This document shows positions 4,329-55,380 of a DNA stretch of 64,000 nucleotides, one piece after another. Location: positions 1-64,000 of the IMG/VR virus record IMGVR_UViG_3300032236_001727; one strand, 5' to 3'. Within the stretch, counting starts at the first letter, position 1. Every line of letters begins with the position of its first letter. The notes beneath the pieces were generated by a model. The model was not told the origin of the DNA. It did no database searches and saw nothing but the letters and a program-made list of their open reading frames with translations. This DNA is from a virus. A program made the translations under genes and the position numbers.

Positions 4329-4541
4329 TTACCTGTAGAGGATAACATATTCTCCAAAATATTTTTCAAATACATCTATAAGGTTTTCATAATCACTTGC
4401 TGTCATCTCTTCATGAATAGCATCAGCATCTAAACTCAGTTGGTTAGCAAATCTACGGGCTTGTCCCAACAAAAAAAAGGCATTACCTTGTGGACCTGTT
4501 AGATCAATTTCAATAAATTCTGTATTTTTAGGCTTGATCAT
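4329..4541 (-). CDS. Small conserved phage protein
   Basis: IDLTGPQGNAFFLLG motif, recalled from phage hypothetical proteins. Confidence 0.75.
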   Translation of the reverse strand: MIKPKNTEFIEIDLTGPQGNAFFLLGQARRFANQLSLDADAIHEEMTASDYENLIDVFEKYFGEYVILYR

Positions 4542-4566
4542 ATGTTTTTTTATTTAGTTTAAATTG

Positions 4567-4893
4567 TTAAATACTTATTTCCCTGTATACTCCCATTATT
4601 TCAATTGTATTTGGGTATTCTTCTGCTCCCCATTCAGGTTCATACATAGACATAGTTGTTTTGGTTCTAATATATTCTTTCTTATAGTATTTCTTTGATA
4701 GTTTATATGCCATATAATAAGCTTCAAATACAGAAGAACAGTCATGTGTTACTATGTCTCTGCTAGAAATGGCTGTAAGTCTTTGTACGACAGCTTGAAA
4801 TGTTCCTTTTTTATCTTCTTTTGGGTGATTATCCCAAAATTCTTTTGGAAGAAATAATCCTCTCCAAAAAGGTATGTGTTTATTTTTTATCAT
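4567..4893 (-). CDS. Hypothetical protein
   Basis: 108-aa ORF. Confidence 0.65.
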   Translation of the reverse strand: MIKNKHIPFWRGLFLPKEFWDNHPKEDKKGTFQAVVQRLTAISSRDIVTHDCSSVFEAYYMAYKLSKKYYKKEYIRTKTTMSMYEPEWGAEEYPNTIEIMGVYREISI

Positions 4894-4924
4894 ACATAAA
4901 ATTTATTTAAATTAAAAAATGATC

Positions 4925-5005
4925 ATAACAGAGGGTAATCAATAACAGACCCTTTTTAGCCTTAAACTGTAAATACACCCACAACAGTTAAAGACTATCT
5001 GTTAT
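4925..5005 (-). ncRNA. Putative structured RNA (array element 1)
   Basis: ATAACAGA pairs with either of two TCTGTTAT copies; long inner hairpin TAGTCTT-AACTGT/ACAGTT-AAGGCTA. Confidence 0.5.
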
Positions 5006-5031
5006 CAAACTTTTTGTTATGACCAATAAGA

Positions 5032-5248
5032 TGATACTCTGTCTCCAATAACCAGTTGGAGTAGCTATCAGAAGTGTTCTGAAACTTTTAGCTACCTCTC
5101 TAACAAATAACAGCTTCTGGTAAAGCTTGGTAGGTTACATTAAGAGTTTGTCAAATTCTCTACAGGAATTTCTTTGTGGTTATCTGGCAGATTCCAGCTC
5201 CCGTGATTTACCAACTCTACCTATTTGTCTTCAAAGAACAGAGTATCA
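5032..5248 (-). ncRNA. Putative 217-nt multi-stem structured RNA (array element 2)
   Basis: 11-bp closing helix TGATACTCTGT/ACAGAGTATCA, at least six nested helices and two possible pseudoknots. Confidence 0.65.
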
Positions 5249-5260
5249 ATATTTTAATAG

Positions 5261-5414
5261 AAAATGCGCTAGGACTCGAACCTAGAACAAGAGTAGGGCT
5301 GTTAACTCCATTTCTGGATTAAGGACTGACTATTAAGCCAAGGCATTTCCGTCTTACTACTATTCCTATTTATTAAGTCATGCAACCTGTGTATACCAAT
5401 TCCACCACACATCT
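5261..5414 (-). ncRNA. tRNA-like RNA with an approximately 80-nt insert in the anticodon loop (array element 3)
   Basis: Acceptor AGATGTG/CGCATTT, D arm GTGGAATTGGTATACAC, T arm CTAGG-TTCGAGT-CCTAG, stem GGTTG/CAGCC enclosing the insert. Confidence 0.7.
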
Positions 5415-5427
5415 ATTTAAAAAATAA

Positions 5428-5512
5428 AGTAATTACTTAGACAGTTTAAAGATCGCCACTATTAGGCTCAACTGTTTTTCATGATCAATAGTTATTTAAC
5501 TAAGTAATTACT
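5428..5512 (-). ncRNA. Putative pseudoknotted RNA (array element 4)
   Basis: 13-bp perfect closing helix AGTAATTACTTAG/CTAAGTAATTACT; crossing pairings GATC/GATC and ACAGTT/AACTGT. Confidence 0.55.
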
Positions 5513-5532
5513 AAAAAGAACTAATAAAATAA

Positions 5533-5691
5533 GATAGTAACTAAAAGGGCACTTTGTTTTCACGGTTTGTTGTATCTGGAGAGCTCATTCCCAATTAAAA
5601 GTGCTAAATACTAGACATTATCCAGCCTTTTTTGTTTAAATGCCTTCTCAGCCTATGATTATGTACACTTATCATAAACCAGCAACCTATC
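5533..5691 (-). ncRNA. Putative structured RNA (array element 5)
   Basis: GATAG/CTATC ends; hairpin TTTATGAT/ATCATAGG; AAAAGG/CCTTTT; crossing CTGGA/TCCAG and GCACTTT/AAAGTGC. Confidence 0.5.
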
Positions 5692-5696
5692 AATTT

Positions 5697-6437
5697 TTAT
5701 TTGTTAATTCTCAAATATTCGTTCCAAACTTCAATCCATTTTTCAACTGTTGTCTCATTAGATTGACAACCAGTTTTTGACAATACTACTTCTTTTATTT
5801 CAAAAGCATATGAATCAAATTGTGCAGGTATGGATAAATACCATTTATACATTTGTTCAACATATTCTGTTATGTTGTCACTTTTATGAAAAATACCTTC
5901 ATTGGTTATCTTCAAATCAAACACCTCATTCATCTGTACTGTTGTTTCTTGATGTTTGTATATAGGTTCAAACCATAGCTTTAGTACACCAGCTTTTTCA
6001 AGTTGATTAGCTGTTGATGAATCTGTGTTTATTCGGCCCACACTATTCATAAGATAATTACTATCAGGAACTATAGCTAATGCGACTTTGCGATAACATT
6101 CAAATTCTTTTTTTAGTTTATAACCAATTGGTTCTTTTTGTTTTTGCATTTTTTCGTGTTTAGGGTTAACAATTTCATCCCATTGTTCAAGGGTTAGTTT
6201 TACTGTACCTTTTGGAAAAGAAGATAATTCATGATTCCATTCAGTATTTCCCCAGCAAATATTTTTTCCAATTCCATAATATGCTCCTTCTGTATTTCCA
6301 TCCCAACACCAAGTTCCTGTTCTGGGATTATTTTCATATGCATAGCCGTTGAGCCATTTTATGTATTTTGCCCATAAAGGATTTGTTTCATAGTCCTCGG
6401 GGGTTGCAATCGCAAAATGTTTAGGTAGTTGTTCCAT
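5697..6437 (-). CDS. Modular paralog-family protein (domain A + unique C-terminus)
   Basis: LPKHFAI...DYETNPLWAKYIKWLN...GTVKLTLEQWDEIVN. Confidence 0.8.
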   Translation of the reverse strand: MEQLPKHFAIATPEDYETNPLWAKYIKWLNGYAYENNPRTGTWCWDGNTEGAYYGIGKNICWGNTEWNHELSSFPKGTVKLTLEQWDEIVNPKHEKMQKQKEPIGYKLKKEFECYRKVALAIVPDSNYLMNSVGRINTDSSTANQLEKAGVLKLWFEPIYKHQETTVQMNEVFDLKITNEGIFHKSDNITEYVEQMYKWYLSIPAQFDSYAFEIKEVVLSKTGCQSNETTVEKWIEVWNEYLRINK

Positions 6438-6452
6438 TATTTATTTGATTTA

Positions 6453-7253
6453 TTAGTTTACATAAGTTAATGCTATATCAAATAGCTTTTTATTTATTGA
6501 TATGTCTTGGCTAAAGTTTTTCACTTTGCGAGCTTTACGTGTTTTAGTACTGTAGTTGTATTGGAAATCTCCATTGAGTATTTTTTCCTGCACCACATTG
6601 AATACACTCCATAGGCTATTTCCTTTGTCTTCATTACGTACAGGACTTAGTAGTGCTTCATAATCTACTTTTATCCTATCATTTTGCTCAGTTCCAAATC
6701 TTGCTTCCAATGCTTTTTTAGCAAATTCTATTGCTTGTTCCTGCAATAGTTCTATATTTTTCATTTTATTCATACTATCAACTGTTAGTGGTAGTTTTTC
6801 AACCATAGCATGAATTTTATTTTGCAGTTCCTCAAATGTATAACCTATGTGACGAATCTTTACATCTTCAAACTGTTCAGTAGATACCACCAAACCATTT
6901 TCACATATACATCTGAATATACCAGCTGTGAATGTAAATGCATTCTTTCCATCATGTGAATTACTCAACAAAATTTGGGGGAAAACATCATCACCATTAT
7001 CTCCAGTTATTATTATGTCTGGGTTTCTAAACACTATGAGATGTTTTTGGAATCCTATTCCGGTTCGTGCTTTGACTTCTTTAGCATCTACTACTTTCCA
7101 ACCCAACATCTCCATATCATCTATAACCTTATCGGTTGGAATGTGAGTGTATTGTTCTGACAAATGATGAGCTCGCTGTGTTGTGAACACAGATGGGGCT
7201 TGTTTCTTAATTTCTTCTTTGGTTTTGAAAACCATATTTGATAGATCTAACAT
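6453..7253 (-). CDS. DUF932/DUF945-family protein
   Basis: APSVF...YTHIPT, ILLSNSHDG, AGIFRCICENG, IRH and LWSVFNVVQE motifs. Confidence 0.85.
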   Translation of the reverse strand: MLDLSNMVFKTKEEIKKQAPSVFTTQRAHHLSEQYTHIPTDKVIDDMEMLGWKVVDAKEVKARTGIGFQKHLIVFRNPDIIITGDNGDDVFPQILLSNSHDGKNAFTFTAGIFRCICENGLVVSTEQFEDVKIRHIGYTFEELQNKIHAMVEKLPLTVDSMNKMKNIELLQEQAIEFAKKALEARFGTEQNDRIKVDYEALLSPVRNEDKGNSLWSVFNVVQEKILNGDFQYNYSTKTRKARKVKNFSQDISINKKLFDIALTYVN

Positions 7254-15151: not shown

Positions 15152-16249
15152 TTATTTTTCATTAGATAAAAAGATGTTACTAATTGCTTTGAAGCTAATA
15201 CTTGTATCAATTGATCTAACTACTAATCCTTCTCTGTCAGTGTTTGGATTCAGGAAAGATTTACCATCTGCTAATTTCAGTATTTCTTCTATTGTATTTG
15301 GAAAAATAAACGGTGTTAGTATTGGAACAGTATCTAAGCCGAGAGATGTGATAAAAGTAACAAAATCATCAAAAGATAATCTTTTCTGTGTATCAATATC
15401 AAATACATTGTAAAATTTTACAGTGTGTCCTTTAATCTTATAAGGATTACCTTGTATGCCTTCGCCAATTAATTCTCCTTGTAAACAAATGTTGCGATTA
15501 GTTGCTAACAATTTGTCTTTCAATTGCATCTCACGAGCAACTTTCCAGAAAGTATTTTCTTGTTTAGGTCTTTCGATACCATCTTCGCAAGTAACCATTC
15601 CCGGAACAAATTCTCCCGAATCTTTAAGTTCTAAATTTCTAGAGCATACACCAAACTCACCATTTCTTACATAAAATGTTGCAGATGATCCATCTAATTT
15701 TTCTGTTGCATAAAATGTAGTATTAGACTTTACCCATTCTGGATATTTGTTTGCTAAATTTTGCACTCGTTCTTCATCAGTTTTTTGTAAAAATGAAGGA
15801 AATAATCCTTTAACTTTACCGGCTAATTCAGCTGGTATCGGTGGTTCGTATTTTACAATCCCCAAATATTCAGTAACATCTACACCTTCAACCCATTCTT
15901 CAGAGTCAATTAAAGGATCTTTTTTGCGTATGTATAAAGAGTTAGCATCTGTTAGCGGAATAATAAGTCCTTGTGATATCTGACCTCTCAGTCTTATTGT
16001 CTTCAAACGAAATCCTTCAGTACCATCAACTAATTTCTTGTAGCTACTTTTACGCAGAAACTCAAACTCAGGTTCAATTGGTAGGAAAGAATCTATTTCG
16101 CAATAAACAACTAAGTCACCTATTTTATGGTTTACGTCTTTTGCTACTACAACTTTCCAACCATCTATGTGTGCTAATTCGATTTTATCTGCACCTTCAA
16201 TTGGTGTTAAATTGCTGATCTTTCTTATTGTTGCTAATTTTCTTTCCAT
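15152..16249 (-). CDS. ATP-dependent RNA ligase (Rnl2/DRB0094 family)
   Basis: N-terminal OB-like PIEGADKIE; TEKLDGSS, SRN, GELIGEGIQGN, REGLV and FKAIS motifs. Confidence 0.9.
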   Translation of the reverse strand: MERKLATIRKISNLTPIEGADKIELAHIDGWKVVVAKDVNHKIGDLVVYCEIDSFLPIEPEFEFLRKSSYKKLVDGTEGFRLKTIRLRGQISQGLIIPLTDANSLYIRKKDPLIDSEEWVEGVDVTEYLGIVKYEPPIPAELAGKVKGLFPSFLQKTDEERVQNLANKYPEWVKSNTTFYATEKLDGSSATFYVRNGEFGVCSRNLELKDSGEFVPGMVTCEDGIERPKQENTFWKVAREMQLKDKLLATNRNICLQGELIGEGIQGNPYKIKGHTVKFYNVFDIDTQKRLSFDDFVTFITSLGLDTVPILTPFIFPNTIEEILKLADGKSFLNPNTDREGLVVRSIDTSISFKAISNIFLSNEK

Positions 16250-20756: not shown

Positions 20757-20830
20757 ACCTTGGTGTCAATCATAGTTTGGTACCGGGAGCGGGAATCGAA
20801 CCCGCACGGCCTTTTGGGCCAAGAGATTTT

Positions 20831-21513
20831 CTTACTACTATAGTTTTCACTACCACTGAACGTGTTTGTAGTCTGGACTATACCTTCACCATACTTTCGT
20901 TTAGGTGTTCCGTGTCTAGTCTCTACACCTTCTTCATTTCTGAAGCTTGGCTCGGTATTACCATTTTAAAGGCTTCACCGAATTTACGGAATTCTACTCC
21001 TTAAATTTCTCTAAGGGCACTCAAATTTTGTTTGTTCCTACCAGCATAAGTAGTTGTTTGTGAATGGCAATTAGGGCATAAAAATCTTAAATTTTCTATT
21101 CTATGGTCCCCATTGATTCCATTTATATGATCTAGATGAAGTGAAATACTCATATTATTCCATTCATTTATACCACATATAGAACACTTATATTCAATTA
21201 AACCATTTTTAATTATTTCTTTTCTTACTGAACATCTAGAAGCATAATCTTCTATATGTGTTATACGCTTACTAATATTTTTATTTAATCCCTTTCCTGA
21301 TTGGTTGGGTTTATAACAATCATATTTTAAAGCATATTTTTTGAAAGAATTAAAATGTAAATTTAATTTAGCAGCAGCTCTAGCCATAGAAGGCTCAGTG
21401 TTGCATACTTCTATAAAGTATTCTTTACTTATGCTAGTTATTTTTTTCATATCTATCAGTTTTATGTATTTACCCATAAATATGAAAAAATTTCAAAGAA
21501 CTAAAACTCTCTC
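20831..21513 (-). mobile_element. Group I self-splicing intron (trnL-UAA/IC3-like), 683 nt, ORF-containing
   Basis: P1 GACUU-GAGA-GAGUU with U.G at 5' splice site; P AATTCGGTGAA, Q AATACCGAGC, R GTAGAGACTA, S AAGGTATAGTCC; P3 TTCCGT/ACGGAA; terminal G. Confidence 0.92.
21001..21477 (-). CDS. Intron-encoded HNH homing endonuclease
   Basis: N-terminal HTH-like segment; CSIC...HLDHINGINGDHRIENLRFLCPNCHSQT. Confidence 0.9.
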   Translation of the reverse strand: MGKYIKLIDMKKITSISKEYFIEVCNTEPSMARAAAKLNLHFNSFKKYALKYDCYKPNQSGKGLNKNISKRITHIEDYASRCSVRKEIIKNGLIEYKCSICGINEWNNMSISLHLDHINGINGDHRIENLRFLCPNCHSQTTTYAGRNKQNLSALREI

Positions 21514-21549
21514 AAGTCTCTCATGTCTACCTTTTCATCACCCCGGCAT

Positions 21550-21575
21550 AAAAAAGATGCTGCAGTCATCTTTTT
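21550..21575 (-). terminator. Hairpin with T-tract immediately 5' of tRNA-Leu
   Basis: AAAAAGATG-ACTGCAG-CATCTTTTTT; weak, AT-rich stem. Confidence 0.4.
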
Positions 21576-25652: not shown

Positions 25653-25728
25653 GGATTTAAGAAAGGATTTGAACCTTTACCTCGCGCCTTCTAGTCAGCC
25701 CTTATGCTACCGTTACACCACTTAAATC
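25653..25728 (-). tRNA. Degenerate tRNA/tRNA-like element (anticodon unassignable)
   Basis: GATTTAAG/CTTAAATC acceptor, D arm GTGT-AACGGTA-GCAT, T arm AAAGG-TTCAAAT-CCTTT; anticodon stem has G-G mismatch and 8-nt loop GACTAGAA. Confidence 0.6.
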
Positions 25729-26144: not shown

Positions 26145-26223
26145 TTAGCATGACAGGATTTGAACCTGTGACCTCCGCCTTGTAAATGGATGGCGGCACT
26201 CTACCAGACTGAGCTACATGCTA
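26145..26223 (-). tRNA. tRNA-Val(UAC)-like with 12-nt anticodon loop
   Basis: TAGCATG/CATGCTA, D arm GCTC-AGTCTGGTA-GAGT, CCGCC-ATCCATTTACAA-GGCGG, AGGTC, T arm ACAGG-TTCAAAT-CCTGT; no encoded CCA. Confidence 0.75.
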
Positions 26224-40239: not shown

Positions 40240-41493
40240 TTAATTTGAAAGTGGTGCTTTTATTGTTGGGTGTGATTGATAATTACTTAGTTGTATGTCT
40301 TCTTCTATTAAACATTTACAAACAGTATTATTTTGTAAACTATCTAAAATAGATGTTGCACTTAAAGGTCCAACCCCACATTCTCCAGATTCTGTAGGCC
40401 AAAATTCTGTGTTGATGTTTAATTTTGGAAGCTGATATGGTTCTCTACCAATTTGTTCTTTTGCTTGTTCTACATGATTAAGATATAAGTGCGTGTCACC
40501 CAAGTTTCCGATTAGTTCGTCTGGAACCATGTTTGTAATCTTTGCAAGTATCTCTAAAAGTAGGCCATAAGAAGCTATATTGAACGGAAGGCCAAGGAAT
40601 GTATCGACTGAACGCTGGTTCCACATTAATGAGATTGCTCTGGTTGGAATATTCTTTTCATCTAAACATTCTTTGATTTTTTTTCTTCTAACATTCTTAA
40701 AACTTTGAACTTCTTCATAAATTAGTCTTTGTTCATTTTGAGTAAGAGTGTCCATTCTTTCTTTTTCACTCAATTCTCTTGTATAAACTTGAAACCCATA
40801 ATGGCAAGGTGGCAAAACGCAAGTATCAACTTCATCTGGATTCCAAGCTGTCACTAGCATTCTACGGTCATCTGGATTTGTTTTTAACTTGGTTATGAGG
40901 TTTTGTATTTGGTCTATACTATTAAAATGTACACCACTTGTGCCGTTGTGGTTTTGATGTTTCTTAGAAACCCTACCACCCCAGTCTCTCCATTGTGCCC
41001 CGTATATCAGACCTAAATCACCCCAATTATTAGCAAACTCATCATCAGTTTTGATTTTATTGATGAATTCTTCTTTTGAATATTCTTCAAATTCATATTC
41101 ATTGTTTTCGTGGTTGTAATTTGAACTACCGTATTCTATTTTATCTCTCTCATCTAATCCCCAATATCGTTTACAATATGATTTATAAGCATCACCATCC
41201 CAGATATGACAATCATTCTCTAAAAGATACTTTATATTTGTGTCTCCTCTTAAAAACCAAAGTAGTTCGGTTATGATACCTTTAAAGTACATCTTCTTTG
41301 TGGTAAGCAAAGGAAATCCTTCTGACATCTTATGTCTTATTTGTCTTCCGAATACTGAAGTGGTTCCAGTGCCAGTTCTGTCTTTTTTTACTGTACCGTT
41401 ATCAAGAATATCTTGAAGCAGGTCTGTATATTGTTTATCTAGTTGGTTTTTCATCTGATAAGTATTTAAGGTGTTCTTTTCCAAATTTATCAA
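40240..41493 (-). CDS. thyA: Thymidylate synthase; start probably MKNQ at 41454
   Basis: DRTGTGT, FPLLTTKK, ELLWFL, LPPCH, QRSVD.FLGLPFNIASY and GDTHLY motifs. Confidence 0.95.
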   Translation of the reverse strand: MINLEKNTLNTYQMKNQLDKQYTDLLQDILDNGTVKKDRTGTGTTSVFGRQIRHKMSEGFPLLTTKKMYFKGIITELLWFLRGDTNIKYLLENDCHIWDGDAYKSYCKRYWGLDERDKIEYGSSNYNHENNEYEFEEYSKEEFINKIKTDDEFANNWGDLGLIYGAQWRDWGGRVSKKHQNHNGTSGVHFNSIDQIQNLITKLKTNPDDRRMLVTAWNPDEVDTCVLPPCHYGFQVYTRELSEKERMDTLTQNEQRLIYEEVQSFKNVRRKKIKECLDEKNIPTRAISLMWNQRSVDTFLGLPFNIASYGLLLEILAKITNMVPDELIGNLGDTHLYLNHVEQAKEQIGREPYQLPKLNINTEFWPTESGECGVGPLSATSILDSLQNNTVCKCLIEEDIQLSNYQSHPTIKAPLSN

Positions 41494-53532: not shown

Positions 53533-55380
53533 TTATAAAAATTCTTCATTTATTATCTTATTTGCATGTTTTATTGTTTCTTGAATAGCTCGCTGGCCAA
53601 ATGTAGTTACTGCTGAAGAAAGAATTTTATGGCCATCTGTAAAGCGCCAAGAATTGATGGCAAAAGCACCATAAATACTGTTAAGGGCTATTTTGAAAGA
53701 GTGTTGTTTCATGTGGAATAGTTCCCCCTTCACCTTATCTCCATCTTTATAAGCTTTTTTCATAGCATTTTTAAACTCTTTTCTCATATTAAACCACTCA
53801 GCTAGTAATTCAGCAACTATACTAGGCTTATCTGTTGAAAAAATCACTCCATTAGCGGATACTGTCCAATTATTTTCAATAATTGTTTCTATAAGATCTT
53901 TAATTTTTATTTTTCCAGATTTTAAGGTATATGTTCTTTTATCTAGTTTTTCTAATGTTACTATTTTTTCAGGGTCTTCTTCTCTTAGCTCTTCTAAACT
54001 ATACCAACAGTTATAATTTGGGTTGTCTATAACAATCCTAGCTTTTAATGTTTCTATTCCTAAATTTAATGATCGTATGATTGAAGGATACAAACTAGCA
54101 AAGTCGGCATTTATACTCCAGTTATGTAATCCTACTTGAGGATCTAAAAGAAATCCACCAGCATATCCTTCTTTTTTTCTAACAGATTTTAAAAATCTAG
54201 TTATGAAAGCACCTCCTTTGGTTTTAACAATAACTTGTTTATTATCAATTTCATGTACTGTTCCCTCTATAGTAGGTGTTCCTCTTTGGTGTACTACATA
54301 ATCTCCAACTTCTAATTCTCTTATAGATGGATTAACTGTTGTAGGTTTGTTAGGGGCTATAATGTTTTTTCTCTTAAGGTAAGTAAGTATAGCACCTTCA
54401 TTTAATTCAGTGTTATAGTATATTGATTCATAAGGTGTATGACATAGATGTGATATTAGAACAGTTAGTTCAATAAATTTCAATTTATTTTCTAATGCTT
54501 CTAATATTTCAACATCTCGTATGTTATACTCTATAAATTTGTTCTTATTTTCTTTAAATAAGGCATCCAAAGAGCCATTATATTCTATTTTACCTAATTT
54601 AACATATTTGGTTCCTATATCTCCTAATTTGTATGATGTTTCCTCTTTAGTAATATACTTTTTAAATAAAAGCATAAAATCAAGACAATTAATCAAACCT
54701 ATTTTTATAGGAGATTTAGAATTGTTTAGGTCTTCTGTTATTTTACCTATAGGGGATAATCTATATACTTCATCACCCATTATCTTTTTTATCCTATAAT
54801 ATAGATATGGCATATCAAAAAAATCACTATTCCAACCTACAACAATAGTAGGATCTATTTCTTCCCATTTGCTTAAAAAATTTCTTATTAATGTTTTTTC
54901 ATCAATACAAGAAATGATATGTTTATTTTCTATAGATATAGACTCTATTTCTTTATTTTTATCTAGAATAAAACATATAGTTTGCTTATTATTTACATCT
55001 AGTAAAGCAATAGAAGTTATTTCAGCTTTAGCTTCTTTAATAGTGTATTCATTTAAAGCGCCTATAATTTCAATTTCTATATCTAGATAAACCAGATTAT
55101 GAAATGAAGGTTTATCATCACTCTTGTAATATTGGTCTCTAAGTAGTACCAACTCTTTAGAAATATCTTTTTCATATATCGTGGGGTCATTTCTATCATA
55201 TTTTCCAGTTATTGGGGAACAACGATCTCCAAACAATGTTGTATATTCACCATATTGATCTAATTTATATAATGTTGGATTATATTTGAATTTAGAAATG
55301 TGTTTCTTATCATCACGTAAGAAGTAATGATAAGCATCTGGATCGTTTTTGTCTCGGACATAATAAAGAGCTTGATACAT
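53533..55380 (-). CDS. Family B DNA polymerase, N-terminal part (3'-5' exonuclease, motifs A and B)
   Basis: DIE, GWNSDFFD, YNIRDV, DFASLYPSII and KIALNSIYG motifs. Confidence 0.93.
   Translation of the reverse strand: MYQALYYVRDKNDPDAYHYFLRDDKKHISKFKYNPTLYKLDQYGEYTTLFGDRCSPITGKYDRNDPTIYEKDISKELVLLRDQYYKSDDKPSFHNLVYLDIEIEIIGALNEYTIKEAKAEITSIALLDVNNKQTICFILDKNKEIESISIENKHIISCIDEKTLIRNFLSKWEEIDPTIVVGWNSDFFDMPYLYYRIKKIMGDEVYRLSPIGKITEDLNNSKSPIKIGLINCLDFMLLFKKYITKEETSYKLGDIGTKYVKLGKIEYNGSLDALFKENKNKFIEYNIRDVEILEALENKLKFIELTVLISHLCHTPYESIYYNTELNEGAILTYLKRKNIIAPNKPTTVNPSIRELEVGDYVVHQRGTPTIEGTVHEIDNKQVIVKTKGGAFITRFLKSVRKKEGYAGGFLLDPQVGLHNWSINADFASLYPSIIRSLNLGIETLKARIVIDNPNYNCWYSLEELREEDPEKIVTLEKLDKRTYTLKSGKIKIKDLIETIIENNWTVSANGVIFSTDKPSIVAELLAEWFNMRKEFKNAMKKAYKDGDKVKGELFHMKQHSFKIALNSIYGAFAINSWRFTDGHKILSSAVTTFGQRAIQETIKHANKIINEEFL

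What the first reader, a model, noticed from the sequence alone, without database searches (positions are those of the whole stretch)
5261..5414. tRNA chassis carrying an ~80-nt structured cargo in place of the anticodon loop
Seen: acceptor AGATGTG/CGCATTT, type-II-like D arm (GTGGAATTGGTATACAC), perfect T arm and anticodon stem GGTTG/CAGCC. The stem encloses about 80 nt with its own pairings (TGACT/AGTCA; TCCA-GAAA-TGGA tetraloop). It is too short for a group I intron, and it has a D arm, unlike tmRNA. Inference: either a natural tRNA-scaffolded RNA (stabilised and matured by RNase P/Z) or a tRNA with a protein-spliced intron.
Basis: partly seen in the sequence, partly recalled or inferred. 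Interest (0 to 1): 0.8.

Follow-up and report, generated by a model that had tools for sequence, protein, structure and literature searches.

The report
Non-decoding phage tRNA look-alike beside conserved RNA
A freshwater phage carries a gene shaped like a leucine-type tRNA whose codon-reading loop is replaced by 81 loosely folded bases, and it sits directly in front of a well-folded 217-base RNA that otherwise unrelated phages share, so it is probably a handle for that RNA and not a working tRNA.

Summary

The insert folds no better than shuffles (z +0.56) and I found no homologue. No single excision restores a 7-nt loop with U33 (0 solutions). Rfam finds no intron or ribozyme there.

The new point is what lies next to it. 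12 nt downstream is a 217-nt RNA, "R" (5248-5032, z -3.2). R is the only similarity found between the window and three contig loci (two lineages) from other phage contigs. In all three lineages R follows, by 5-12 nt, a different tRNA look-alike with an enlarged anticodon loop or middle.

Best reading (0.4): a non-decoding tRNA-shaped module that gives processing or stability to a composite phage RNA.

Oversized phage tRNA genes are already in print as "enigmatic introns" of Lak megaphages (PMC6784885). This scan has noted similar genes on other DNA (54 notes). No expression data exist.

The parts
5261..5414 (-). tRNA look-alike, class II (Leu-like) frame, 154 nt including discriminator T; no encoded CCA
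   Evidence: ARAGORN -i; 0 hits in 40 shuffles; anatomy
5302..5382 (-). 81-nt loop (74 nt more than a normal anticodon loop); A/U-rich (35% G+C); CTTAAT occurs three times
   Evidence: (any 6-mer three times or more in 385 of 20000 shuffles)
5383..5387 (-). anticodon-stem 5' strand GGTTG
5297..5301 (-). anticodon-stem 3' strand CAGCC
5269..5285 (-). T arm CTAGG-TTCGAGT-CCTAG
   Evidence: also flagged as terminator-like because T-rich sequence follows
5389..5405 (-). D arm GTGG-AATTGGTAT-ACAC, identical to the D arm of ordinary phage tRNA-Leu(UAG) genes
5249..5260 (-). 12-nt spacer CTATTAAAATAT between the discriminator and R; identical in L040
5032..5248 (-). Module R: 217-nt multi-branched RNA closed by the 11-bp helix TGATACTCTGT/ACAGAGTATCA. 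Conserved blocks 5221-5248, 5093-5129 and 5030-5060 pair with one another. Two variable hairpin regions lie between them.
   Evidence: z -3.2; I4; contigs of freshwater runs cover it
5428..5512 (-). upstream hairpin with a 13-bp perfect stem and a 59-nt loop, followed by a T-run; ends 13 nt before the look-alike
   Evidence: I3

Best explanation
5414-5261 (minus strand) is a tRNA-derived gene that no longer decodes. It keeps every part of a tRNA that the maturation enzymes read: acceptor stem, D/T elbow and T loop. Its anticodon loop has become an unconstrained 81-nt A/U-rich stretch. It is the 5' half of a two-part non-coding cassette. 12 nt after its discriminator begins R, a conserved, stably folded 217-nt RNA found in otherwise dissimilar phage contigs, each time behind a different tRNA look-alike with an enlarged anticodon loop or middle. 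I infer that the frame works as a handle. RNase P and RNase Z (or another 3' endonuclease) would cut at its ends, setting the 5' end of R and separating the members of this RNA array, and the stable tRNA fold would protect the transcript. The enlarged loop would keep the handle out of translation. Shown: the anatomy, the lack of structure and conservation in the insert, the impossibility of a canonical spliced product, the conservation and fold of R, and the repeated adjacency. Inferred: transcription, cleavage by RNase P/Z, and any benefit to R.
For: (1) The frame is intact: 20 of 21 stem positions pair (the 21st is the class II G13:A22), and U8, GG in the D loop and TTCGAGT in the T loop are present. 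ARAGORN -i calls it and finds nothing in 40 shuffles. (2) The insert is not constrained: z +0.56 alone and +0.23 with its stem, and no homologue was found in IMG/VR by three pattern scans. (3) No single excision gives a canonical anticodon arm: 0 solutions for the window and 0 for L040, against 4 for control L007 including CTTAAAA. (4) R folds far better than shuffles in all three lineages: z -3.20, -2.57 and -2.98, with 1, 1 and 2 of 200 shuffles as good. Its three conserved blocks pair with each other, and length variation sits at hairpin tips. (5) R (with a few bases of the neighbouring tRNA-like ends) is the only tblastx similarity at E<=1e-5 between the 64-kb window and L040 (12.6 kb), L042 (4.9 kb) and L043 (6.8 kb). 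(6) R was found by a pattern lying inside R. In 3 of 3 lineages where the upstream side is visible, a different tRNA look-alike ends 5-12 nt before it: the window; L040/L042 (class II, 144 nt, ARAGORN -i); and L043 (class I, Rfam tRNA 43.5 bits with 35 nt in place of the 7-nt loop). Contigs of runs X4 and X5 run from R into the L040-type T arm exactly at 5260/5261. (7) There is precedent for RNA elements tied to phage tRNAs. GOLLD and ROOL lie near tRNA islands, and tRNAs occur in the GOLLD linker (passages read). Theta ribozymes next to phage tRNAs are proposed to process 3' trailers (passages read).
Against: There are no expression data: no RNA run holds the stretch. So transcription, ends and cleavage are all inferred. 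An ordinary tRNA would serve as a processing handle just as well, so the reason for the enlarged loops is a guess. Only three lineages of R are known, and the conserved blocks are invariant, so there is almost no covariation (2 of 40 pairs with changes on both sides); R could in principle act as DNA. The cloverleaf is not the unconstrained minimum-energy fold (-26.3 against -30.1 kcal/mol), and the whole 154 nt folds no better than shuffles (z +1.15). Relatives of this phage lack the element: 14 of 15 loci next to the DUF932 gene have no tRNA and 1 has an ordinary tRNA-Ala, and 5 whole records lack R. It is therefore accessory and could be decaying. I found no complementarity between an insert and its own R beyond shuffles or non-cognate pairs.
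Confidence: 0.4

Rival explanations
1. A dying tRNA gene. A former class II tRNA was disabled by an insertion or by slippage in the anticodon loop and does nothing. It lies next to R only because such RNAs gather in tRNA islands.
For: The insert is unstructured and unconserved. No canonical anticodon loop can be recovered. The discriminator is T and the variable region is only 11 nt with no real stem; from recalled knowledge, bacterial tRNA-Leu has A73 and a longer variable arm. The element is absent from this phage's sampled relatives. It is not seen by Rfam.
Against: All stems of the frame still pair in a genome of 30% G+C, and the frame has 40% G+C. Three different look-alikes, all with enlarged anticodon loops or middles, precede R in 3 of 3 lineages. 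In the tRNA clusters I fetched, genes flagged as oversized (and not themselves the target of my search pattern) were a minority: none beyond the pattern-selected gene in L003, L006 and L007, and none in the 5 listings I read out of L004, L008, L009, L011 and L012; 3 in L010, 1 in L005 and 2 in L036.
Confidence: 0.25
2. A natural tRNA scaffold that displays a working, single-stranded cargo. For example, the three CUUAAU copies may mimic the anticodon loop CUUAAAA of tRNA-Leu(UAA), so the RNA would act as a decoy or sponge for a host nuclease or other factor that targets that tRNA.
For: CTTAAT occurs 3 times in 81 nt; any 6-mer reaches 3 copies in only 385 of 20000 shuffles. The phage invests in tRNA-Leu(UAA): it has its own copy with a group I intron. 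It also encodes an RNA ligase. Published work proposes that phage tRNAs evade anticodon-targeting defences (PMC10264068, search listing and abstract start only).
Against: The motif statistic is post hoc and modest. The inserts of the L040 and L043 look-alikes share nothing with this one. No homologue is available to test conservation. No defence target is known for the (unknown) host.
Confidence: 0.15
3. A working tRNA gene with an intron of an unknown kind, like the 'enigmatic introns' of Lak megaphage tRNAs, removed by host or phage enzymes and resealed by the phage RNA ligase, or by R acting in cis.
For: ARAGORN models it as a tRNA with a 74-nt intron. The phage has an RNA ligase of Pfam family RNA_ligase (PF09414) with a PHA02142 OB-fold domain, at 15152-16249. 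Oversized phage tRNA genes are published as intron-bearing (PMC6784885, abstract and passages read). With one stem mismatch allowed, 4-5 weak solutions appear, e.g. loop CTGGAGT.
Against: ARAGORN's product has loop CAGTTAA with A33, and it labels a class II frame as Asn. No excision gives U33 with a perfect stem, and the mismatch solutions give up the perfect GGTTG/CAGCC stem. No group I or other ribozyme match. No splicing endonuclease or RtcB in the record. 74 nt is far shorter than the 205-nt Azoarcus intron, which I recall as the smallest natural group I intron.
Confidence: 0.1

Closest known systems
'Enigmatic introns' in tRNA genes of Prevotella Lak megaphages (Devoto et al. 2019, PMC6784885; abstract and passages read)
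   Same: An oversized phage tRNA gene that standard bacterial settings miss and that is called only when introns are allowed. The insert has no Rfam class.
   Different: In Lak phages the tool assigns a tRNA type and excision point, and the inserts are identical across cohorts. Here no canonical product exists, no conserved homologue of the insert was found, and the gene is tied to a conserved downstream RNA.
GOLLD and ROOL RNAs of phages and prophages (PMC5737381; bioRxiv 10.1101/2024.12.08.627333; passages read)
   Same: A conserved, ornate phage non-coding RNA of unknown function placed beside tRNA genes. GOLLD can be downstream of a tRNA or carry tRNAs in its linker.
   Different: R is 217 nt, against about 580-800 nt. 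It matches neither Rfam model. Its tRNA partner is always a non-decoding look-alike in the three lineages seen.
Theta (minimal HDV-like) ribozymes next to phage tRNAs (PMC10879173; passages read)
   Same: A structured RNA tied in cis to a phage tRNA and proposed to process the tRNA-trailer boundary.
   Different: No HDV-like match. R starts 5-12 nt after the discriminator, is much larger and is A/U-rich. Self-cleavage is untested.
tRNA-like processing handles such as MALAT1 mascRNA, plant mitochondrial t-elements and mitochondrial tRNA punctuation (recalled, not read here)
   Same: A tRNA-shaped fold with no decoding role, used so that RNase P/Z define the ends of a neighbouring RNA.
   Different: Those are eukaryotic or organellar. 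None is described in a phage, and cleavage here is only inferred.
Class II bacterial and phage tRNA-Leu (Rfam RF00005)
   Same: Identical 18-nt D arm, G13:A22, canonical T loop and a 7-bp acceptor stem.
   Different: 81-nt loop, T discriminator, 11-nt variable region, no CCA, no Rfam score.

Membership tests
Decoding tRNA (Rfam RF00005) | Cloverleaf with acceptor, D and T arms and conserved elbow nucleotides | tested here: met
   0 hits in 40 shuffles
Decoding tRNA (Rfam RF00005) | Score at or above the Rfam gathering threshold | tested here: not met
   no match at gathering score or at E<=10 over 5000-5700
Decoding tRNA (Rfam RF00005) | 7-nt anticodon loop with U33 and a purine at 37, present directly or after removing one insert | tested here: not met
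   81-nt loop; 0 solutions by exhaustive single excision, against 4 in control L007
tRNA with group I intron | Catalytic core recognised by Rfam RF00028, of about 200 nt or more | tested here: not met
   no match at E<=10; positive control in the same window, 50.5 bits at 20856-21041; the insert is 74 nt
tRNA with protein-spliced (archaeal/eukaryal type) intron | Excision restores a canonical anticodon loop | tested here: not met
tRNA with protein-spliced (archaeal/eukaryal type) intron | Splicing endonuclease (PF01974) and RtcB ligase (PF01139) available | tested here: inconclusive
   neither is in the 83-kb record, but the record is about 51% complete and the host is unknown; an RNA ligase of another family is present
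tRNA with protein-spliced (archaeal/eukaryal type) intron | Bulge-helix-bulge motif at the splice sites | not tested
   no formal search was run; no splice sites could be defined
tmRNA | tRNA-like domain without a D arm, plus a tag reading frame and pseudoknots | tested here: not met
   ARAGORN tmRNA search found none; Rfam found none; a full D arm is present
YrlA / bacterial Y RNA | Rfam model match and a Ro60 (TROVE) partner | tested here: not met
   no Rfam match; no PF05731 in the record
Lak-type 'enigmatic intron' phage tRNA genes | Oversized phage tRNA gene detected only with intron-permitting settings; insert without an Rfam class | tested here: met
   definition from PMC6784885
Lak-type 'enigmatic intron' phage tRNA genes | Insert sequence kept across related phages | tested here: inconclusive
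   no homologue was found; closer relatives could not be fetched (closed)
GOLLD / ROOL | Match to RF01998 / RF03087 (accession numbers recalled) | tested here: not met
   no Rfam match to R in the window, L040 or L043

The most novel reading that the evidence does not exclude
The tRNA look-alike and R are one composite RNA of a class not yet described: a non-decoding tRNA-shaped head with a freely evolving anticodon-loop insert, covalently tied to a conserved multi-branched RNA that moves between unrelated phages. R would work on or with the tRNA head. It might grip its elbow, or cut or rejoin RNA as a ribozyme. That would make it a small cousin of GOLLD with its linked tRNAs.
Probability: 0.2. 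Interest if true: 0.8.

Novelty: new variant of a known kind. Interest (0 to 1): 0.55.

Why it matters
Oversized, unreadable tRNA genes keep turning up in phage genomes and are filed as 'introns' without a known splicing route. This case argues against splicing, because no canonical tRNA can be made from it. It also gives the first contextual clue I know of: a conserved, strongly folded RNA shared by otherwise dissimilar phage contigs that, in every lineage seen, sits right behind such a look-alike. If the link holds, it points to tRNA-shaped handles for maturing or stabilising phage non-coding RNAs. It also defines a compact new RNA motif (R) that can be tested at the bench.

Tried and rejected
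Searches for homologues of the look-alike. A pattern of the D arm plus T loop gave 10 loci. Five were ordinary tRNA-Leu(UAG) genes bridged to the next tRNA, and five were other oversized class II genes with unrelated middles. Patterns for the 3' end and for the D arm plus anticodon stem gave 0.

Synteny. The upstream protein P0001 has no relatives in IMG/VR. The DUF932 neighbour gave 15 loci: 14 have no tRNA, 1 has an ordinary tRNA-Ala, and none shows similarity to 4401-5750. Whole records of 5 relatives gave only short D-arm or A/T-rich hits and no R.

Wider searches for R. GenBank phages: no match to 4500-6500. Two block patterns gave 0 in genome contigs. Three viral scans gave only L040. 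The one metagenome scan gave L041 (the same contig as L040), L042 and L043.

Expression. No RNA holder is listed for 4900-5700. Contigs of X2-X5 leave 5278-5493 without cover.

Pairing between the insert and R. Cognate duplex energies are no better than non-cognate pairs or shuffles.

Promoter idea. TTTTTTAAATAG stands just before this gene, and similar T-runs stand before two look-alikes in L036. But the motif is not enriched in the window: 6 matches against 5.6 expected. The sigma-70 scan found nothing upstream on the minus strand.

Other family searches. A CCA-adding enzyme (PF01743) and Ro60 (PF05731) were not found in the record.

Print searches for this kind of gene. I found nothing on a tRNA look-alike tied to an R-like RNA. 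Supplements were closed.

Full report
WHAT IS THERE. The window is the first 64 kb of an 83-kb IMG/VR virus record that CheckV rates about 51% complete. It has 30% G+C and nearly all ORFs are on the minus strand. Its 703-aa protein is 51% identical to one of Cellulophaga phages phi4:1 and phi17:2, and 72% identical to one in the uncultured phage record LR756500.1.

The finding lies on the minus strand, in an intergenic stretch of about 800 nt between ORFs 5697-6437 and 4567-4893. Read 5414 to 5261, it is a complete tRNA frame:
- a 7-bp acceptor stem (2 G-U pairs), then U8 and G9;
- a D arm with 3 pairs plus G13:A22 and GG in the loop, then A26;
- the stem GGTTG/CAGCC, enclosing 81 nt;
- an 11-nt variable region;
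- the T arm CTAGG-TTCGAGT-CCTAG;
- discriminator T, with no encoded CCA.

Default ARAGORN and Rfam do not report it. ARAGORN with introns allowed does. The same setting finds nothing in 40 dinucleotide shuffles of the window, so the frame is not a chance match. Its 18-nt D arm is letter for letter that of ordinary phage tRNA-Leu(UAG) genes (L004, L008, L009, L011, L012).

THE INSERT IS NOT A FOLDED CARGO AND NOT A RECOGNISABLE INTRON. The 81 nt fold at -10.0 kcal/mol (z +0.56; 148 of 200 shuffles do as well). With the closing stem, z is +0.23. The whole 154 nt gives z +1.15. Rfam at E<=10 finds nothing in 5000-5700. As a positive control, the same phage's genuine tRNA-Leu(UAA) at 20778-21557 carries a group I intron that scores 50.5 bits, with an ORF inside it.

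I removed every possible single segment from the region between the D and T arms. For each I asked for one base at position 26, a 5-bp stem (G-U allowed), a 7-nt loop with U33 and R37, and a variable region of 4-24 nt. The window gave 0 solutions and L040 gave 0. A control oversized gene in L007 gave 4, including CTTAAAA, which is Leu-UAA. Dropping the R37 demand still gave 0. Allowing one stem mismatch gave 4-5 weak solutions that sacrifice the perfect GGTTG/CAGCC stem. ARAGORN's own model, Asn-GTT with loop CAGTTAA, has A33 on a class II frame and is not credible.

The record holds no splicing endonuclease, RtcB, CCA-adding enzyme or Ro60, but only half the genome is in hand. It does hold an RNA ligase. 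One oddity remains: CTTAAT occurs three times in the insert, and any 6-mer does so in only 385 of 20000 shuffles.

RELATIVES. Fifteen IMG/VR loci share the DUF932 neighbour gene at 57-70% identity. Fourteen have no tRNA within the flank downstream of it, one has an ordinary tRNA-Ala, and none has DNA similar to 4401-5750. The cassette is therefore accessory in this lineage.

One relative (G002, locus L036) has, in its tRNA cluster, two paralogous class II frames of 105 and 125 nt with unrelated middles. A D-arm pattern scan also picked up five oversized class II genes in other phages. Oversized tRNA-shaped genes are thus recurrent in phages. This is in print for Lak megaphages as 'enigmatic introns' (PMC6784885; abstract and passages read). 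This scan's own notes hold 54 findings matching the search words for such genes in at least 53 genomes. I tested none of those notes.

THE NEIGHBOUR IS THE INFORMATIVE PART. Contigs of four freshwater runs (X2-X5), laid on 4900-5700, cover 5038-5260 and not the look-alike. In X4 and X5 the sequence beyond 5260 is the 3' end of a different tRNA. Pattern scans with a 24-25-nt piece of that stretch returned L040 (the same contig as L041), L042 and L043.

Alignment and folding define module R, window 5248-5032 on the minus strand:
- an 11-bp closing helix, TGATACTCTGT/ACAGAGTATCA;
- a long helix made by block 1 (5221-5248) pairing with block 2 (5093-5129);
- a conserved hairpin, AGCTTT-ACCA-GAAGCT;
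- a conserved hairpin within block 3 (5030-5060);
- two regions that differ in length and sequence and sit at helix tips.

Each version folds far better than its shuffles: z -3.20, -2.57 and -2.98. The blocks are nearly invariant, so covariation is almost absent (2 of 40 pairs).

By tblastx at E<=1e-5, R, together with a few bases of the neighbouring tRNA-like ends, is the only similarity between the 64-kb window and the 12.6-, 4.9- and 6.8-kb loci. R is single-copy in the record. It is absent from five relatives' records, from GenBank phages and from 185,579 prokaryote genomes by two exact patterns. It is unknown to Rfam.

THE LINK. The loci were found with a pattern inside R, not with a tRNA pattern. 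Yet a tRNA look-alike with an enlarged anticodon loop or middle ends 5-12 nt before R in 3 of 3 lineages where that side is visible:
- the window: class II frame, 81-nt loop;
- L040/L042: class II frame, 144 nt, different acceptor and T stems. X4 and X5 show the same junction;
- L043: class I frame, Rfam tRNA 43.5 bits with 35 nt where 7 are expected.

The three middles share nothing and none is well folded (z 0.05, +1.17, -1.13). In L040 a 36-nt copy of block 1 (97% identical) also stands before the look-alike, and the window has a decayed version there. The genes after R differ: unknown in the window, PTH2-like in L040 and a family 2 glycosyltransferase in L043. R is therefore unlikely to be a leader for one gene family.

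MECHANISM. I take the look-alike to be a non-decoding, tRNA-shaped module of a composite non-coding transcript. The parts kept intact are those read by RNase P, RNase Z and other tRNA-handling enzymes (established knowledge, recalled). The part that reads codons is free to drift. Cutting at the frame's ends would release R with a defined 5' end and separate the members of this RNA array. A 13-bp hairpin at 5512-5428 stands just upstream. This is inference, and nothing shows transcription.

The rivals are a decaying pseudogene (0.25), a displayed single-stranded decoy built on the CUUAAU repeats (0.15) and an intron of unknown kind (0.10).

The closest known things are the Lak 'enigmatic introns' (same look, no explanation), GOLLD and ROOL (phage RNAs beside or linked to tRNAs), theta ribozymes (RNA next to phage tRNAs for trailer processing) and eukaryotic tRNA-like processing handles (recalled). 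It is a member of none by the tests run.

VERDICT. The gene itself is a further example of a known but unexplained kind. The tie to a conserved RNA shared between otherwise dissimilar phage contigs is new as far as my six paper searches show. Interest 0.55.

Noticed in passing
window 5032-5248 (-): Module R: a 217-nt multi-branched RNA (z -3.2) with three near-invariant blocks, shared with otherwise dissimilar phage contigs L040/L042 and L043 and with contigs of four freshwater runs. It is not in Rfam.
   Followed up: partly
window 20778-21557 (-): A genuine tRNA-Leu(UAA) with encoded CCA, split after CTT by a group I intron (RF00028, 50.5 bits at 20856-21041). An ORF (21001-21477) lies inside the intron.
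   Followed up: partly
window 26145-26223 (-) and 25654-25727 (-): Two more tRNA genes with altered anticodon arms. One has a 12-nt loop, ATCCATTTACAA. The other has a poorly paired arm containing CTA. Both pass Rfam tRNA (57.6 and 39.8 bits). So none of the four tRNA-shaped genes in the window has a plain uninterrupted anticodon loop.
   Followed up: no
L040 1931-2113 (-): The L040 look-alike is flanked on both sides by a 36-nt direct repeat of R block 1 (97% identical), as if the tRNA-shaped gene sat inside a duplication of R's 5' strand.
   Followed up: partly
L036 1152-1256 and 1392-1516 (-): A relative of this phage has two paralogous class II frames (same acceptor AGTCAGG and the same T arm) with unrelated enlarged middles. 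Each is preceded by a T-run plus AAAT, as in the window.
   Followed up: no
L010 757-2358; L005 10219-11188; L003 9907-10031; L006 1334-1469; L007 227-349: Other phage tRNA clusters hold genes that ARAGORN calls only with 32-133-nt 'introns'. Those I inspected (L003, L005 second gene, L006, L007, L010 genes 3, 4 and 6) are on class II frames. The L007 gene can restore a canonical Leu-UAA loop on excision, so it may be a true intron case.
   Followed up: partly
window 40240-41493 (-): The thymidylate synthase ORF is 417 aa, but the 266-position Pfam profile spans residues 20-416. About 130 extra residues therefore sit inside the domain.
   Followed up: no
window 53533-55380 (-): The family B DNA polymerase ORF of 615 aa matches only profile positions 15-202 of 453, so the polymerase appears to be split or interrupted.
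   Followed up: no
window 5428-5512: A perfect 13-bp inverted repeat with 59 nt between the arms, followed by a T-run, just upstream of the look-alike. It could be a terminator or another member of the RNA array.
   Followed up: no
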